This document shows positions 50,855 through 58,462 of a stretch of 64,000 nucleotides of DNA, one piece after another. The notes beneath the pieces were generated by a model, which was not told the DNA's origin, did not search any database, and saw only the letters and a program-made list of their open reading frames with translations. The position numbers and the translations under genes are program-made. Every line of letters begins with the position of its first letter. The stretch's first letter is position 1. This DNA comes from a virus. The stretch is from the IMG/VR virus record IMGVR_UViG_3300043470_000815; one strand, given 5' to 3'.

Positions 50855-51280
50855 TTAACCTTTCAATTTCCTTAATTGTTCTTCAAGATCACCCAATGTA
50901 ACGTTTTTATCACGTTCAGCGGCAATCCTATCTTCTAGTTTTCTGATTTCGGCTTGTTTGGTTTTTTCGGCGGCGGAATTTTTTTCTTTATCCAACTTGT
51001 AACCAATCGTTAGATCAATGAACTTATACCACGTATCCAGCCTTTTTTCCAATTTAGATTGGTCTTCCGTCTTAGACCACGAGTCAAGGTCATTGAGTTG
51101 ATTTTTTTGCCCTTTAAGGGTCTTTAAAAGCAATCGTAGTGATACTACACTTGCGGCGTTTATGATTTCCCAAGGATTGACCATGTTCGCCCCGAATTTT
51201 CCTTCCAACACATCTTCACTAAATGATAAGTCAGTATAAAGGGTTCTTAATGTTTGTAAATTTTCTTTTGTAAATTCCAT
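50855..51280 (-). CDS. coiled-coil hypothetical protein downstream of the TROVE-like gene
   Basis: 141-aa ORF. Confidence 0.65.
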   Translation of the reverse strand: MEFTKENLQTLRTLYTDLSFSEDVLEGKFGANMVNPWEIINAASVVSLRLLLKTLKGQKNQLNDLDSWSKTEDQSKLEKRLDTWYKFIDLTIGYKLDKEKNSAAEKTKQAEIRKLEDRIAAERDKNVTLGDLEEQLRKLKG

Positions 51281-51540: not shown

Positions 51541-53388
51541 TTAAATTGTGTTTTGTTTTATTAATTCATAACGGTTTGACATATACAACGTTTTCAACGG
51601 TAAGTAAGTATCAATAACATCTAAATCGTCAATATTCTTAAAGATTTGATTAATCACACCTGCATTATAACCCATTACGTGTAAAGTATTAGGAACTCCA
51701 GCGAACTTCGATGGTTCGTCCCTACCAGTCACAACGTCCCAAATAACTACAACACCATCCCACCCATAATTCAACATTTTGCGACGAAAATCTAACATGG
51801 ATTGTGCTGCATTACTTAGACGATTCATATCACCATCCGAAACAACAACAAAAACGGGATACCCTTGTAGTTGTTCAATTTTATGCTGTTTAGTTAATGG
51901 GTCAGATTCAATCCACCTACCTAATGTGTCGGCAACTGATGTGAAGTTTGTACTTCCACCATTAGAATCAATGAATTTTGATATATTTCCATAGTTTTCA
52001 CTAAAAGGTTTAGTACGATCAATTAATTTTTCTACCTTAGTTGCAACACCTTGTAAAAAACGATTTGGGCGGGTTGTGCCTGTTGAACCATCCGTGTAAA
52101 CATTTGCTTCCGATCCGAATGTAATAAGGACGTTATCTAATTCATTGGATGGATTTTTTAACATTGTAATTGTTGATAGCAAACGAGCCATAAACGTTGC
52201 AACACCTGTCATACTACCCGAAATATCCGCAATTGTCAATACTGGAACATCGAACTTAACTTGATCCAAAATACTTTGTGCATTTAAATTCAGTTGGGTG
52301 GTGGATTGTTGCATCTTTTCCAAAATACTAAACATCGTTTCTCCACCCGTGTTGACTTTGGCCGCTTTTTTAACCTGTGATAACGCAATTTTATCTTCTT
52401 CACTGGCAGTTCCTAAACGGATTTTTTCAGTCAGTTCACGTTGCGTTTCTTGTAATTTGGCTTTATTGGTTTCCCATTCAAGTAACCATTTTCCTAAGTC
52501 ATTTTTCCACTTAGATTTTAATTTATCATCACCATCCAACAACCTACGACGGGTACGGAAACGTGCCGATGACGGCATTTTATCCAACAAATCATTAAAT
52601 TGAATTTTGTCCAAATCGTTAATTTTTCCTGTTGAAAATAGAACACTTTCCAATTCTTGGTTGTATTGTTTTTTCCATTCAGCCAACCCCGTGAATTTTT
52701 TGTATTTTTCACCACGTGAAACTTCCCACCCTAATTCAACTGATAATAAATCGTAAAATTTACTACGAAGTTTCATATTGGCTTTGACTAAATCAGACAA
52801 ATCACGTTGACCAACCTTTTCACGGGTTGTACGGTCTAACTTTTGACGCTTAGATGTTCGCACGTTTGTTAGGAATTTTGCAATTATCATACAATCCACC
52901 ACATTACCTTTACGGATAATATTTGCGAGGTATTTTGCAACTTCCGATAGATCAACACATTCCAACATGTTAATGTTTTCGGTTACTTGTTTACTACCAG
53001 TTTTTGTCTTGACACGTGATGCTAATACGTTGTCCAATGTGGTATATTGCCTTATACAATCGCTTGTGACGAACTTTAGGTATTGGGTTGGATGATTTAG
53101 CCTTGTCCAATTTAAGATTGTCCTAAACGCTTCACGGTTGGAATTACCACCGTTATCTAACGAAGTTTCATTTCGTAGAACGTTATGTGTTCGGTTGGAA
53201 ATGTCGCCACAACTGAATGCAATTATCCAAAACAATTGTTTTTCTTGTTCGGTTTTACAATCGCGGAATGCGTTGGTTAGAATTGCGGGTGTAATTTTAC
53301 CTGATTGGGCAGCCTGATAAAATTCAAATAAAGCAAGTTTTCCATAAAATGGATTTTCACTTGCGGGAGTTTTTAATGAAACTTTCAT
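51541..53388 (-). CDS. TROVE/Ro60-like (DUF2828-type) protein with C-terminal VWA domain
   Basis: Helical N-terminal region with GD...GG..NRE and LES.LF..GKI...MPS.A; VWA motifs IADISGSM, GGSTNF, VVSDGD, VIWD. Confidence 0.75.
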   Translation of the reverse strand: MKVSLKTPASENPFYGKLALFEFYQAAQSGKITPAILTNAFRDCKTEQEKQLFWIIAFSCGDISNRTHNVLRNETSLDNGGNSNREAFRTILNWTRLNHPTQYLKFVTSDCIRQYTTLDNVLASRVKTKTGSKQVTENINMLECVDLSEVAKYLANIIRKGNVVDCMIIAKFLTNVRTSKRQKLDRTTREKVGQRDLSDLVKANMKLRSKFYDLLSVELGWEVSRGEKYKKFTGLAEWKKQYNQELESVLFSTGKINDLDKIQFNDLLDKMPSSARFRTRRRLLDGDDKLKSKWKNDLGKWLLEWETNKAKLQETQRELTEKIRLGTASEEDKIALSQVKKAAKVNTGGETMFSILEKMQQSTTQLNLNAQSILDQVKFDVPVLTIADISGSMTGVATFMARLLSTITMLKNPSNELDNVLITFGSEANVYTDGSTGTTRPNRFLQGVATKVEKLIDRTKPFSENYGNISKFIDSNGGSTNFTSVADTLGRWIESDPLTKQHKIEQLQGYPVFVVVSDGDMNRLSNAAQSMLDFRRKMLNYGWDGVVVIWDVVTGRDEPSKFAGVPNTLHVMGYNAGVINQIFKNIDDLDVIDTYLPLKTLYMSNRYELIKQNTI

Positions 53389-53703
53389 TAATTTGTAAGT
53401 TAATAAGTGAAAAAAAAAATAAAATACTACCTAATGGTTAAATTAAGGCAATTTTGAATATTCATAAATTATACGCATTTTATCCCATAATTCTATTTCG
53501 ATTTCTCGTTCATCGGGTAATGAAAATATCAAAGTTCTTTTCATTTCGCCTATTCGATAAGATGAAATATTATTTATTTCGGGTATTAATGCTTCGTAAA
53601 ATTGTACGAATTTTCCGTTGGGAGTTAAATCTTTGAATATTTCGGATATTTGTGATTCTGTCATATTAAATTTATTTAATCTTTTTATTGTTAAATTATT
53701 AAG

Positions 53704-53817
53704 CAGGGGTTATTGGACTCGAACCAATATTTCGACCTTGGAATGGTTGTTAAATGAATTGTAAGTAATCAAATGAATACTTTAATTTACGCGTCCTACC
53801 AGTTAGACTAAACCCCT
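53704..53817 (-). tRNA. tRNA-Gly(TCC) with a 42-nt insertion in the anticodon stem (element B)
   Basis: Acceptor AGGGGTT/AACCCCT, D arm, T arm ATTGG-TTCGAGT-CCAAT; removing 53748-53789 restores CGACC-ATTCCAA-GGTCG. Confidence 0.7.
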
Positions 53818-53972
53818 TAATTGTTAATATTAGGCAAGAACCAAAAAATATATGAATATTACATATATCCACTTCTTAGGAACAATACTGTGTTTTTGAT
53901 TCCTACCCATTTATTTAAAGTTAGTGTGAATAATATTCACCGTGTTTGTAACAGAAATCTGTTACTTAAAGA

Positions 53973-53998
53973 GACAGAAGGTAAACTTCTGTTTAAAA
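53973..53998 (-). terminator. hairpin downstream of element D
   Basis: ACAGAAG-TTTAC-CTTCTGT then CTCTTT; near-identical copy at 57520-57545. Confidence 0.6.
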
Positions 53999-54097
53999 AA
54001 ATCCACTTGTTGTTGTCCACCACTGGACGAATCACCATACATGAAGGTAAATATAAGAATCGAACTTATCATTTTTTAATGTATTGTAAGTGGATTT
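53999..54097 (-). ncRNA. circularly permuted tRNA-like (YrlA-like) RNA (element D)
   Basis: 10-bp end stem AAATCCACTT/AAGTGGATTT; order is T arm, loop-closed acceptor, D arm. Confidence 0.75.
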
Positions 54098-54152
54098 AAA
54101 ATTTATGTTTAAATCCCGATAGAATTAAAGTTAATCTTTGTGATTTAATTGT

Positions 54153-54303
54153 CGGGGAGGTGGGAATCGAACCCACGTTGTATAATATATCAGATTATTT
54201 TATATGTTAAAAGTATTGTAAGTAAATTAAACTCTGAATTAATCGTTAGTATTTTAATTGATAAAGTTTTTAATCTACTCATTTCCAGCGTTTTAACTCC
54301 CCT
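54153..54303 (-). ncRNA. tRNA-like RNA with expanded body (element E)
   Basis: GGGGAG/CTCCCC acceptor, GTGGG-TTCGATT-CCCAC T arm, internal TCAGA/TCTGA stem enclosing ACTTACAATAC. Confidence 0.65.
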
Positions 54304-54848
54304 GTATTTCTAAAATCTTTTCAACTTTTCGTATAAATCCCAAAAAACACTTCCTATACAAATGAATGTTCCTGTACATAAAACAACGAAAGATATTTGC
54401 AATTTAATCCATGTCGATGTATTATACGCACCATTATCATCAGCATAAACCGAAATAGCCGTCAATACAACTATATTAGAAAACGCTAAGTATAAGAAAA
54501 ACAATTTACTAATTAATTCGATGCTCATAGAATATTCCGTTTGCGGTTAAATATCCAGTTACATCTTCTTTGTATAAAAAGTGCATTACTGGACAAAATT
54601 TACCATTGTCATTAAGATAACCGAATACATATTCGGTATTACCGTTAATCGGGTCTTTTGGATATAAAAAGGATTCAAGTCCTTCAAAGTTTAATATTGA
54701 TGTTTGTGTCATTTTATTTTAAAGTTTAATTATTTAATTTAAAAAATGAACTATTTGGACTGAAAATATCCACCCTATTCACACTCGACTTTACTTGCAT
54801 AGTTTCCGACCGTATAGGCTCTTGTTGTGACAATAGTTCATATTAAAA

Positions 54849-55471: not shown

Positions 55472-55522
55472 CAAAGATACTACCTCCCAACCTATCCCAC
55501 AATAGCATTAACTAACTGTTAA
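55472..55522 (-). promoter_or_regulatory. early promoter plus dyad
   Basis: TTAAC-N5-GTTAA-N5-TTG-N20-TATCTTTG. Confidence 0.85.
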
Positions 55523-57317: not shown

Positions 57318-57407
57318 TGCACTTAATTTGTGGGATTTGAACCCACCTTCGTTTGTGTTTGAGACAAATTGTTCACCTAGAACAGTTTTAAATTTATTGT
57401 AAGTGCA
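57318..57407 (-). ncRNA. tRNA body (D arm, anticodon CAA, T arm) with acceptor arm replaced by the motif stem (element G)
   Basis: TGCACTT/AAGTGCA stem plus ACAAT; TGTTC/GAACA; TTTGT-CTCAAAC-ACAAA; GTGGG-TTCAAAT-CCCAC. Confidence 0.75.
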
Positions 57408-57545: not shown

Positions 57546-57604
57546 AAATCCACTTATTCGTAAAATACCATAATTTTTGATTTAAAAGTATTGTAAGTGA
57601 ATTT
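57546..57604 (-). ncRNA. minimal motif hairpin RNA (element I)
   Basis: AAATTCACTT-ACAATAC...AAGTGGATTT; same downstream hairpin as element D. Confidence 0.65.
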
Positions 57605-57625
57605 ATAATTCCGTTAGAAATTTAG

Positions 57626-57699
57626 TGGCAGGGGTGTGAATCGAACACACAATAATTGGACTTATGAGACCCACTAGCCTACCAAGGCTTGTCCCTGCT
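57626..57699 (-). tRNA. tRNA-Met/Ile2(CAT), A1:C72 mismatch (initiator-like)
   Basis: Cloverleaf; loop CTCATAA; T arm GTGTG-TTCGATT-CACAC. Confidence 0.8.
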
Positions 57700-57723: not shown

Positions 57724-57804
57724 TGGGAAAAGATGGAATCGAACCACCAATAAAATTTTTGTAAGTAAATTAAATCTACTAACCTGTTTTTTCCCGATTT
57801 TCCC
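57724..57804 (-). ncRNA. tRNA-like RNA with the motif in place of the anticodon arm (element K)
   Basis: GGGAAAA/TTTTCCC, GGTGG-TTCGATT-CCATC; shares AGTAGATT and TTTAATTTACTTACAA with element E. Confidence 0.6.
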
Positions 57805-58109: not shown

Positions 58110-58280
58110 TGGTTGAGGTAGGAATCGAACCTACAAACTTGATATTTTTTACCATCTTTTACTACCTTCGATGTTTAATATCGTGCTGGTTTACTGTTCA
58201 TAAGTAGTATATCATGGAGTTTACCCATAATCAATTGTATTGAACTTCACCAACGCGTTTACCAATTTCGCCACCCAACC
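58110..58280 (-). ncRNA. tRNA-Leu-like scaffold with 58-nt anticodon loop and 51-nt variable region (element M)
   Basis: GGTTGGG/CTCAACC; TGGCGAAATTGGTAAACGC D arm; TTGGT/ACCAG stem; GTAGG-TTCGATT-CCTAC. Confidence 0.65.
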
Positions 58281-58298: not shown

Positions 58299-58355
58299 AA
58301 TCCACTTAATTATCAAATTAAAAGTTTGGTTGTTTTAATGTATTGTAAGTGGATT
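58299..58355 (-). ncRNA. minimal motif hairpin RNA (element N)
   Basis: AATCCACTT-ACAATAC...AAGTGGATT; first 23 nt identical to element D. Confidence 0.65.
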
Positions 58356-58386
58356 AATATTTTAATATCTACTTTTAGATATTCTG

Positions 58387-58462
58387 TGCAACTAAATGGA
58401 CTCGAACCATTAACACCAAGATTCATAAATGAATCAACTCTAACCAATTGAGTTATAATTGC
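58387..58462 (-). tRNA. atypical tRNA, 6-nt anticodon loop, undetermined
   Basis: GCAATTA/TAGTTGC, ACTC/GAGT, GATTC-ATTTAT-GAATC, AATGG-TTCGAGT-CCATT. Confidence 0.6.

What the first reader, a model, noticed from the sequence alone, without database searches (positions are those of the whole stretch)
53999..54097. Circularly permuted tRNA mimic with YrlA-like topology (element D)
Minus strand: AAATCCACTT-ACAATAC...ATAAG-TTCGATT-CTTAT (T arm), ATTTACC-TTCATGTAT-GGTGATT (acceptor closed by a loop), GTCC-AGTGGT-GGAC (D arm), ...AAGTGGATTT. The 3' half of a tRNA precedes the 5' half, and the long end stem takes the place of the anticodon arm. This is the architecture described for YrlA Y RNAs. 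tRNA scanners would miss it, and the ORF track overlays a spurious plus-strand ORF.
Basis: partly seen in the sequence, partly recalled or inferred. Interest (0 to 1): 0.82.

Follow-up and report, generated by a model that had tools for sequence, protein, structure and literature searches.

The report
Phage Y-RNA-like permuted tRNA mimic
A roughly 100-base phage RNA gene folds like a tRNA whose ends have been moved to the anticodon side, carries a helix-plus-ACAA tag shared with its neighbouring RNAs, and lies just upstream of a distant Ro60-like protein, so it is most likely a new variant of the Y RNA / Ro60 partnership.

Summary
Minus strand 54097..53999 folds into a four-way junction: a 10-bp terminal helix, a T arm with a canonical T loop, a loop-closed acceptor-like hairpin and a D arm with GG. 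There is no anticodon arm. tRNA scanners and Rfam miss it.

It is one of at least seven elements in this window that share a covarying helix (inner pairs ACUU/AAGU) followed by unpaired ACAA(U). Across 13 related phage loci, this octamer occurs 66 times on the sense strand and once antisense within 6.5 kb upstream of one conserved 615-aa gene. A covariance model built without any window sequence hits the element at 63.6 bits (E = 2e-10).

The 615-aa protein has a MIDAS vWA domain and a helical N domain. Its best whole-length structural matches are Ro60 proteins. The N domain alone matches DUF2828/DUF7788, not TROVE.

The same tagged helix encloses the start codon of that gene, with compensatory changes, which suggests autoregulation.

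Best reading: a Y-RNA-like tRNA mimic with YrlA topology. It is not a member of the Rfam YrlA family, because the model does not match and the GNCGAA motif is absent. Other first readers in this scan flagged the family on overlapping windows. No expression data could be obtained.

The parts
53999..54097 (-). Element D: the whole permuted tRNA-like RNA, bounded by the terminal helix
   Evidence: MFE fold; pair probabilities; hit of the independent model R2 at 63.6 bits, E = 2.1e-10
54088..54097 (-). 5' strand of terminal helix S (ends in ACUU)
   Evidence: Pairs with 53999-54008. The inner 4 bp are invariant and the outer pairs covary across the family
54081..54087 (-). Unpaired conserved tag ACAAUAC directly 3' of the S 5' strand
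   Evidence: Invariant ACAA in alignments A3 and A4; strand-specific enrichment of the octamer
54070..54081 (-). Small 4-bp hairpin in the variable-region position
   Evidence: MFE fold; not conserved in relatives
54053..54069 (-). T arm: 5-bp stem and 7-nt loop UUCGAUU
   Evidence: the stem covaries and the loop is invariant in relatives
54030..54052 (-). Acceptor-like hairpin: 7 positions with one U-U mismatch, closed by a 9-nt loop that starts UUCA
   Evidence: pair probability only about 0.3; the equivalent hairpin covaries in relatives
54015..54028 (-). D arm: 4-bp stem and 6-nt loop containing GG
   Evidence: Pair probability 1.0; D arms with GG sit at the same place in relatives
53999..54008 (-). 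3' strand of terminal helix S (starts AAGU)
53975..53998 (-). U run directly after S, then a 6-bp hairpin: candidate 3'-end or terminator region. The same sequence follows element E2
   Evidence: Sequence read; blastn match to the E2-type flank of L050. The consensus terminator scan did not flag it
51541..53388 (-). 615-aa Ro60-like protein (helical N domain plus vWA with MIDAS): proposed binding partner
53354..53413 (-). S-type helix (9 bp) plus ACUUACAA tag enclosing the start codon of the 615-aa gene: candidate autoregulatory operator
   Evidence: compensatory variants in L036, L039 and L041
58299..58355 (-). Family member E1: the same S helix and tag around a small hairpin, followed by a U run
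57546..57604 (-). Family member E2: S helix and tag around a small hairpin
57318..57407 (-). Family member E4: the S helix takes the place of the acceptor stem around D-like, anticodon-like and T arms
53704..53817 (-). tRNA gene (Rfam tRNA, 42 bits) carrying a closed S hairpin plus tag as an insertion between the D arm and the anticodon arm
   Evidence: 97% identical in L050
54150..54293 (-). tRNA-like gene with a long closed S hairpin plus tag and a canonical T arm and 3' acceptor strand
57724..57804 (-). tRNA-like gene (Rfam tRNA, 30.6 bits) with a closed S-type hairpin in the anticodon-arm position

Best explanation
Element D is a small non-coding RNA of the Y RNA type with two modules. The first module is the terminal helix S, formed by the RNA's 5' and 3' ends. 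Its inner pairs are ACUU/AAGU and its outer pairs vary freely. Together with the adjacent unpaired ACAA(UAC), it forms a portable protein-binding tag. The second module is a tRNA-shaped body: a T arm stacked on a loop-closed acceptor-like stem, plus a D arm with GG that can form the tRNA elbow. It has no anticodon arm, so it cannot decode. The proposed tag reader is the 615-aa Ro60-like vWA protein encoded 0.6 kb downstream on the same strand, probably in the same transcription unit. That protein would hold the tRNA mimic, and the other tagged RNAs of the array, and so be tethered to, or compete for, host enzymes that recognise the tRNA shape. It would also repress its own translation by binding the same tag around its start codon. 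Shown here: the structure, the family, covariation, the linkage to the gene and the tag in the leader. Inferred: transcription as a discrete RNA, binding by the 615-aa protein and the downstream effect. As happens with M. smegmatis YrlA, RNase P might cut the 9-nt loop that closes the acceptor, but this was not tested.
For: 1. Structure: the fold and pair probabilities.
2. Family membership: model R2, built from 15 elements of other phages and no window sequence, hits D at 63.6 bits, E = 2.1e-10. It also hits the other tagged elements, and all the significant hits are on the minus strand.
3. Covariation: RNAalifold on 10 elements gives 21 pairs in S, the T arm and the acceptor hairpin, and 15 of them show double compensatory changes. 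33 of 61 tags have a partner helix of 9 or more pairs, against 6% of shuffled controls. There are 27 different outer sequences.
4. Linkage: the octamer occurs 66 times sense and once antisense within 6.5 kb upstream of the 615-aa homologue in 13 loci, against 9 and 6 elsewhere. This holds down to 36-40% protein identity. Model R1 finds D-type elements next to the gene even in L042 and L043.
5. The same architecture recurs with unrelated stem sequences: the T arm abuts a closed 6-8-bp hairpin, followed by UA or UG and then a D arm with GG.
6. In elements sharing the same S helix, the anticodon-like loop differs (UGA, GUA with A33, UAA, GUA). This argues for mimicry rather than decoding.
7. The leader: a 9-10-bp S helix plus tag encloses the start codon of the 615-aa gene. 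Compensatory changes include a synonymous GAA to GAG codon change matched by a change in the UTR.
8. The protein: the MIDAS residues D388, S390 and S392 are invariant, and one relative passes the Pfam VWA cut-off. The 12 best Foldseek PDB hits are all Ro60/TROVE proteins over the whole length (E = 3e-8 to 7e-5). ESM Atlas gives TM 0.54/0.64-0.67 over about 410 residues with TROVE plus vWA_Ro60 clusters.
9. Precedent: YrlA RNAs lie within 4 kb of Ro60 on the same strand, including in phages (PMC4201824). Phage phiLo Ro60 binds two Y-like RNAs encoded upstream of its gene (PMC12135203).
Against: The TROVE identity of the partner is unproven. Pfam, PHROGs and PDB sequence and profile searches find no TROVE. 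The N domain alone matches only generic helical repeats in the PDB and weakly matches DUF7788/DUF2828 viral proteins (E = 1e-3 to 3e-2). TM scores to Ro60 are low (0.26-0.34), and plain vWA domains score nearly as high in VIA-align. D lacks the GNCGAA/CGAA motif of known Y RNAs and gets no Rfam YrlA or Y RNA hit. In the closest relative (97% protein identity), a small E2-type element lies where D lies here, so D is dispensable at this locus. The acceptor-like hairpin is thermodynamically weak. The tags lie in tRNA-rich regions, so linkage to the tRNA cluster and linkage to the protein gene cannot be fully separated.
Confidence: 0.58

Rival explanations
1. The S helix plus ACAA is a processing or termination signal of the phage tRNA operons, cut by a host or phage RNase or acting as a terminator through its U run. 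On this view D is a decayed tRNA fragment trapped inside such a signal, and the 615-aa protein plays no part.
For: The tags lie among tRNA genes. Many S 3' strands are followed by U runs. S can enclose a complete ordinary tRNA (L036 4845-4954, L037 5237-5349). The payload is exchangeable between close strains. The last tag sits at the boundary between the RNA array and the mRNA.
Against: Most tRNAs of these clusters carry no tag, and tags occur only upstream of the 615-aa gene although tRNAs lie on both sides of it. Closed S hairpins inside tRNA genes have no U run. The leader helix pairs the UTR with codons 10-12 and encloses the start codon, which is the layout of a translational operator. 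The T arm, closed acceptor and D arm of D-type elements are maintained by compensatory change in distant phages, so they are not decaying. The consensus terminator scan finds nothing here.
Confidence: 0.2
2. D is a circularly permuted tRNA gene in the strict sense. Its ends are joined or held together by S and the acceptor loop is opened, by RNase P and 3' trimming with CCA addition, to give a functional one- or two-piece tRNA.
For: The permuted order is the same as in known permuted tRNA genes. The acceptor is 7 positions long with a 9-nt loop. In relatives the closing loop begins with NCCA in 4 of 16 elements and with UUCA in 4, including D. Many relatives keep a canonical 7-nt anticodon loop. 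M. smegmatis YrlA is cut by RNase P and receives CCA (PMC4201824). A related phage appears to carry a permuted tmRNA.
Against: D has no anticodon arm, so it cannot decode. S is a perfect helix without the bulge-helix-bulge motif that directs splicing of permuted tRNAs. Several relatives close the acceptor with tri- or tetraloops that leave no room for processing. Anticodon-like loops differ among elements sharing the same S helix, and one has A33.
Confidence: 0.1
3. The repeat acts at the DNA level, as a recombination or homing site or a miniature mobile cassette, and the RNA folds are incidental.
For: Payloads differ between near-identical genomes at the same site, with conserved flanks. HNH endonuclease genes lie in the same regions.
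Against: The motif is strictly strand-specific, 66 to 1. G-U pairs and compensatory changes point to RNA-level selection. The tRNA-like arms are conserved in shape but not in sequence. A copy sits inside the translation start region of a gene.
Confidence: 0.05

Closest known systems
YrlA Y RNAs (Rfam RF02553; Salmonella, M. smegmatis, mycobacteriophages; Chen et al. 2014, PMC4201824)
   Same: The 5' and 3' ends form the protein-binding stem. The body is a tRNA mimic in the order V region, T arm, loop-closed acceptor-like stem, D arm. The RNA is encoded close to a Ro60-type gene and on the same strand. YrlA RNAs are also found in phages.
   Different: The Rfam model gives no match. The GNCGAA motif is replaced by an ACUU/AAGU helix plus ACAA. 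The partner protein is far from canonical TROVE. There are 5-11 tagged RNAs per genome rather than 1-2. The tag is also grafted onto ordinary tRNA genes and onto the partner's own mRNA leader.
Thermus phage phiLo Ro60 with Yrl1/Yrl2 (PMC12135203; PDB 9KOP, 9L5Y)
   Same: A phage-encoded Ro60-type protein (HEAT-like ring plus vWA/MIDAS) has its RNA partners encoded just upstream. PDB entries 9KOP and 9L5Y are among the best structural matches of the 615-aa model.
   Different: The phiLo RNAs carry the CGAA motif in a stem-bulge-stem and are not described as permuted tRNA mimics. Here the motif and the protein sequence family differ.
Circularly permuted tRNA genes (Cyanidioschyzon merolae type)
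   Same: The 3' half (T arm, acceptor 3' strand) precedes the 5' half (acceptor 5' strand, D arm) in the gene. A helix formed by the transcript ends sits at the permutation point.
   Different: Those genes use a bulge-helix-bulge motif, a splicing endonuclease and a ligase, and they yield decoding tRNAs. D has a perfect helix and no anticodon arm (basis: established knowledge).
Translational operators that mimic the protein's RNA ligand (for example ThrRS, ribosomal proteins, phage T4 gp32 and RegA)
   Same: A copy of the RNA-binding site lies over the start codon of the binding protein's own mRNA.
   Different: Binding and repression have not been shown here. This is an analogy only.

Membership tests
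YrlA (Rfam RF02553) | Scores at or above the family's gathering score (69 bits) with the Rfam covariance model | tested here: not met
   RF02553 is in the library. There is no YrlA hit in 53400-54700 even at E <= 10, and none in the related record G001.
YrlA (Rfam RF02553) | GNCGAA(N0-1)G motif near the 5' end (putative Ro60 contact) | tested here: not met
   The motif is absent from 54097..53999. The conserved 5' motif is instead the ACUU end of helix S plus ACAAUAC.
YrlA (Rfam RF02553) | Terminal stem formed by the 5' and 3' ends, with a tRNA-like domain in the order V, T arm, acceptor-like stem-loop, D arm | tested here: met
   The definition is taken from PMC4201824.
YrlA (Rfam RF02553) | Encoded within about 4 kb of a Ro60 (TROVE) ortholog and on the same strand | tested here: inconclusive
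   The element lies 611-709 nt upstream of a 615-aa vWA protein on the same strand. That protein's best whole-length structural matches are Ro60 proteins. It has no sequence-level TROVE signal, and its N domain alone does not retrieve Ro60.
YrlA (Rfam RF02553) | Bound by Ro60; pseudouridine in the T loop and dihydrouridine in the D loop | not testable with these tools
   Needs immunoprecipitation and modification mapping.
tRNA (RF00005) | Cloverleaf in standard order with an anticodon arm | tested here: not met
   ARAGORN and Rfam give no hit on D. The order is permuted and there is no anticodon arm.
Permuted tRNA genes (BHB-dependent) | Bulge-helix-bulge motif formed by the precursor ends, and a complete anticodon arm | tested here: not met
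   S is an uninterrupted 10-bp helix, and no anticodon arm is present.
S-helix/ACAA-tagged RNAs of this phage lineage (defined here) | Hit by a covariance model built from other phages' elements; helix with inner ACUU/AAGU pairs plus 3' ACAA; same strand as the 615-aa gene and upstream of it | tested here: met
   R2 hit at 63.6 bits, E = 2.1e-10.
Ro60 / TROVE-vWA proteins (partner protein) | C-terminal vWA domain with a MIDAS DxSxS motif | tested here: met
   D388, S390 and S392 are invariant in 28 homologues. VWA_2 gives weak hits in 13 of 28. VWA is at the cut-off in P0222. vWA folds score Z = 11-12.
Ro60 / TROVE-vWA proteins (partner protein) | N-terminal TROVE (HEAT-repeat ring) domain | tested here: inconclusive
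   For: the top 12 whole-length Foldseek hits are all Ro60. VIA-align alignments span residues 18-610 (2nvo Z = 13.6; 9nen 369 residues aligned). ESM Atlas gives TM 0.54/0.64-0.67 with TROVE clusters. Against: there is no Pfam TROVE hit. The N domain alone gives only generic helical repeats in the PDB and DUF7788/DUF2828 proteins in BFVD at E = 1e-3 to 3e-2.

The most novel reading that the evidence does not exclude
The S helix plus ACAA may be a portable handle that these phages graft onto tRNA-shaped RNAs in several circular permutations. It replaces the acceptor stem or the anticodon arm, or it sits as an extra arm at position 26/27 or in the variable region of otherwise normal tRNAs. A divergent Ro60-like vWA protein could then collect a whole set of phage tRNAs and tRNA decoys on one platform. 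That platform might protect, repair or present them against host tRNA-targeting defences. Permuted members with an encoded NCCA might be opened by RNase P to give two-piece chargeable tRNAs. The protein would set its own level through the same handle on its mRNA.
Probability: 0.25. Interest if true: 0.9.

Novelty: new variant of a known kind. Interest (0 to 1): 0.72.

Why it matters
Ro60 with Y RNA is a conserved but poorly understood RNA-surveillance module. In bacteria and phages, only the YrlA/CGAA type of RNA partner is known. This is a second, unrelated recognition code. It is tied to a large, unannotated protein family: 252 word-indexed homologues and 258 cluster representatives, with none in cultured phages. 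It comes with many RNA partners per genome, and these are explicit tRNA chimeras. That makes three things directly testable: what a Ro60-type protein does with tRNA-shaped RNAs, how the tag is read, and whether phages use such platforms in conflicts over host tRNA. It also flags a class of tRNA-like genes that standard scanners miss or mis-call in phage genomes.

Tried and rejected
- Exact tag patterns in IMG/VR gave 35 hits. All were chance matches inside unrelated coding sequence. A stricter pattern gave 2 true relatives and 1 chance hit.
- blastn of the region and tblastn of the protein against 50,697 phage records found nothing.
- No whole genome is held for the window. The Atlas fold library was unavailable.
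- Rfam at E <= 10 gave only chance-level rows over D.
- Protein searches that did not show TROVE: PHROGs and Pfam; phmmer and profile searches against PDB sequences; the N domain alone against the PDB by VIA-align and Foldseek.
- The 141-aa downstream gene has no informative relatives.
- I considered the tag as a promoter, because it contains a TACAAT-like hexamer. I rejected this because the upstream strand pairs with a distant partner through compensatory changes, and because the tag also occurs inside tRNA bodies.
- I considered an anticodon-loop reading (CUUACAA). I rejected it because the flanks do not form an anticodon stem.
- I considered IS200/IS605-type TTAC target hairpins. I did not pursue this: there is no transposase, and the pattern is strand- and RNA-specific.

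Full report
CONTEXT. The window is a phage genome segment with nearly all genes on the minus strand. It encodes an endolysin, an HNH endonuclease and a subtilase. The minus strand has a tRNA-rich stretch at about 57.3-59.4 kb and a second non-coding gap at 53665-54310. No whole genome is held, and no cultured phage is similar.

THE OBSERVATION. The minimum-free-energy fold is a four-way junction:
- a 10-bp helix formed by the two ends (called S here);
- seven unpaired bases (ACAAUAC);
- a 4-bp mini-hairpin;
- a 5-bp T arm with loop UUCGAUU;
- an acceptor-like hairpin of seven positions with one U-U mismatch, closed by nine bases;
- one linker base;
- a 4-bp D arm whose 6-nt loop holds GG;
- six linker bases.

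The fold energy is -23.4 kcal/mol against -15.8 +/- 3.1 for shuffles (z = -2.45). In the ensemble, S, the T arm and the D arm are near-certain. The acceptor-like hairpin reaches only about 0.3. There is no anticodon arm. ARAGORN and Rfam tRNA do not call the element. The overlapping plus-strand ORFs have no family support.

D IS ONE OF A FAMILY. The bases that end the S 5' strand and follow it (ACUUACAAU) recur on the minus strand at 58350, 57598, 57404, 54223, 54091 and 53766. One-mismatch copies lie at 57766 and 53400. The plus strand has a single exact copy. Each copy has a partner strand beginning AAGU, in one of three arrangements:
- Open form. The partner lies downstream, so the helix encloses a payload. 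E1 and E2 enclose small hairpins. D encloses the permuted tRNA body. E4 encloses D-like, anticodon-like and T arms, with S in place of the acceptor stem.
- Closed form. The partner lies just upstream, giving a hairpin inserted into an otherwise standard tRNA gene. This is seen at 53817..53704 (Rfam tRNA, 42 bits), 54293..54150 and 57804..57724.
- Enclosing a complete tRNA. In relatives, S can also wrap a complete ordinary tRNA (L036 4845-4954; L037 5237-5349).

RELATIVES AND STATISTICS. The 615-aa gene downstream of D (51541..53388) has 252 homologues in metagenomes, none with a Pfam domain. I fetched 12 loci around homologues of 36-97% identity.
- Linkage. Across these loci and the window, ACTTACAA occurs 66 times on the gene's strand and once on the other strand within 6.5 kb upstream of the gene. 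Elsewhere the counts are 9 and 6, in more than twice as much sequence.
- Helix. 33 of 61 tags have a partner helix of nine or more contiguous pairs, against 6% when the outer bases are shuffled. There are 27 different outer sequences. The helix is therefore maintained by compensation, while the inner ACUU/AAGU pairs and ACAA are fixed.
- Consensus fold. RNAalifold on ten D-type elements recovers S, the T arm and the acceptor hairpin. Fifteen of 21 pairs show double compensatory changes.
- Shared plan. A descriptor parse shows the same plan with unrelated stem sequences. The T arm directly abuts a closed 6-8-bp hairpin, followed by UA or UG, a D arm with GG and, in many elements, a 5-bp/7-nt anticodon-like arm.
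- Covariance models. Model R1 found further D-type elements that were not in its seed, all on the gene strand, at L038 5307, L040 6227 and 7838, L039 6541, L043 10192 and L042 7617. Model R2, built from 15 elements and no window sequence, hits D at 63.6 bits (E = 2.1e-10). This is the best hit in the window. The other tagged elements follow.

MIMIC OR tRNA? D has no anticodon arm. Elements in relatives that share D's S helix and have an anticodon-like arm carry different loops. They read UGA in L037, GUA with A33 in L045, UAA in L047 and GUA in L038. This is not how decoding tRNA orthologues behave. Several relatives close the acceptor with tri- or tetraloops. Four of 16 have NCCA at the start of the closing loop. 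Four, including D, have UUCA. Some members may therefore be opened by RNase P, as M. smegmatis YrlA is (PMC4201824). This was not tested.

THE PARTNER PROTEIN. The C-terminal third is a vWA domain. Its MIDAS residues (D388, S390, S392) are invariant. Pfam VWA hits are weak to borderline, and vWA folds score Z = 11-12. The N-terminal 350 residues are helical repeats.

Evidence for a Ro60 relationship:
- With the whole model, the 12 best Foldseek PDB hits are all Ro60/TROVE proteins aligned end to end, at E = 3e-8 to 7e-5. They include phage phiLo Ro60.
- VIA-align gives D. radiodurans Rsr at Z = 13.6 and human Ro60 with 369 residues aligned.
- ESM Atlas finds TM 0.54/0.64-0.67 over about 410 residues with TROVE plus vWA_Ro60 clusters, and closer similarity to DUF2828/DUF7788 clusters.

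Evidence against:
- TM scores to PDB Ro60 entries are low.
- No sequence method finds TROVE.
- The N domain alone gives only generic helical repeats in the PDB.
- In BFVD the N domain gives DUF7788/DUF2828 proteins at marginal E-values.

I therefore call the protein Ro60-like in architecture and leave TROVE membership open.

THE LEADER. In the window, a 9-bp S-type helix (53413-53405 with 53362-53354) encloses an ACUUACAA copy and the start codon of the 615-aa gene. The same arrangement is present in L037, L038, L047, L048 and L050. L036, L039 and L041 carry compensatory variants. In L039 and L041, a synonymous GAA to GAG change in the coding strand is matched by a change in the UTR. This is the layout of an autoregulatory operator. 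It is the most specific link between the tag and this protein. Binding itself is inferred.

TRANSCRIPTION (inference). A minus-strand TATCTTTG promoter-like motif recurs about 14 times. The nearest copy upstream of D is at 55472-55479, and no further copy occurs before 50720. D and the protein gene may therefore be co-transcribed. S is followed by a U run and a second hairpin. The consensus terminator scan does not flag them.

VARIABILITY. In L050 (97% protein identity), the flanks of D are conserved, but an E2-type small element lies where D lies here. The payloads of the tag are thus exchanged between close strains, and D is not essential at this locus.

COMPARISON WITH KNOWN SYSTEMS. YrlA is defined by four features (PMC4201824): proximity to Ro60 on the same strand, a GNCGAA motif near the 5' end, a terminal stem, and a tRNA-like domain in the order V, T arm, closed acceptor stem, D arm. 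D meets the topology criteria. It arguably meets the proximity criterion. It fails the motif criterion and the Rfam model. The Yrl RNAs of phage phiLo also rely on CGAA. D therefore works like a YrlA-type Y RNA but is not a member of that family. It represents a new variant, with a different tag, a divergent protein, many partners per genome, and tagging of true tRNA genes and of the partner's own mRNA. The same family was noted by other first readers of this scan on overlapping windows. I tested their claims here.

VERDICT. D is a real, structured, family-supported element. The most likely reading is a Y-RNA-like tRNA mimic read by the neighbouring Ro60-like protein (confidence about 0.58). 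The main rival is a processing or terminator signal with a trapped tRNA relic (about 0.2). A strict permuted-tRNA reading is unlikely for D, because it lacks an anticodon arm.

Noticed in passing
L036 8947-9483: ARAGORN calls a permuted (two-piece) tmRNA with a 16-residue tag peptide in a related phage. By eye, the 3' acceptor/T-arm piece precedes a 5' piece that starts with GGGG and pairs with it.
   Followed up: partly
L039 2677-3116: A GOLLD RNA (Rfam RF02032, 186 bits; gathering score 150) lies about 5 kb upstream of the Ro60-like gene in a related phage, in the same tRNA-rich region.
   Followed up: no
window 58110-58280 (minus): A tRNA-like gene (Rfam tRNA, 40 bits) has a good acceptor stem and T arm but an insertion of about 100 nt that lacks the ACUUACAA tag. 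The nature of the insertion is unknown.
   Followed up: no
window 57625-57697 (minus): A cloverleaf with a CAU anticodon loop is missed by both ARAGORN and Rfam at gathering score. It has C rather than U at position 8 and a short D loop.
   Followed up: no
window 58386-58462 (minus): ARAGORN reports a tRNA with a 6-nt anticodon loop (a two-base 'anticodon' tt). Rfam tRNA scores it at 43 bits.
   Followed up: no
window 53867-53893 (minus): A stretch complementary to the tag (complement of ACAAUAC, seven bases, then the S 3' strand of D and E1) lies about 100 nt downstream of D. It has no blastn counterpart in the close relative L050. Its function is unexplained.
   Followed up: partly
window 53436-53689 versus L050 7947-7959: About 250 nt, including the 73-aa ORF 53443-53664, are present in the window but absent from the 97%-identical relative. 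The ORF may be a strain-specific insertion or not a gene.
   Followed up: partly
window, minus strand (e.g. 59623, 59061, 57960, 55472, 50720): TATCTTTG recurs about 14 times on the gene strand. It is often preceded by a TTG-containing box and followed by TTGTATAATTAA. This is likely the promoter type used for this phage's genes (Bacteroidota-like -7 element).
   Followed up: no
L037, L038 and L047, 11.5-16.8 kb: A Ter-type cluster (HAD hydrolase, PRTase, TerC, TerD, vWA-TerF-like) lies a few kb downstream of the Ro60-like gene in three related phages. Band_7 genes are nearby in L041 and L048, and an intein-split RNA ligase lies upstream in L042.
   Followed up: no
window 50855-51280 (minus) and its 141-143-aa homologues: A small gene of unknown family directly follows the Ro60-like gene in the window and in L037, L038, L047, L048, L049 and L050. 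It may be a second component of the system.
   Followed up: partly
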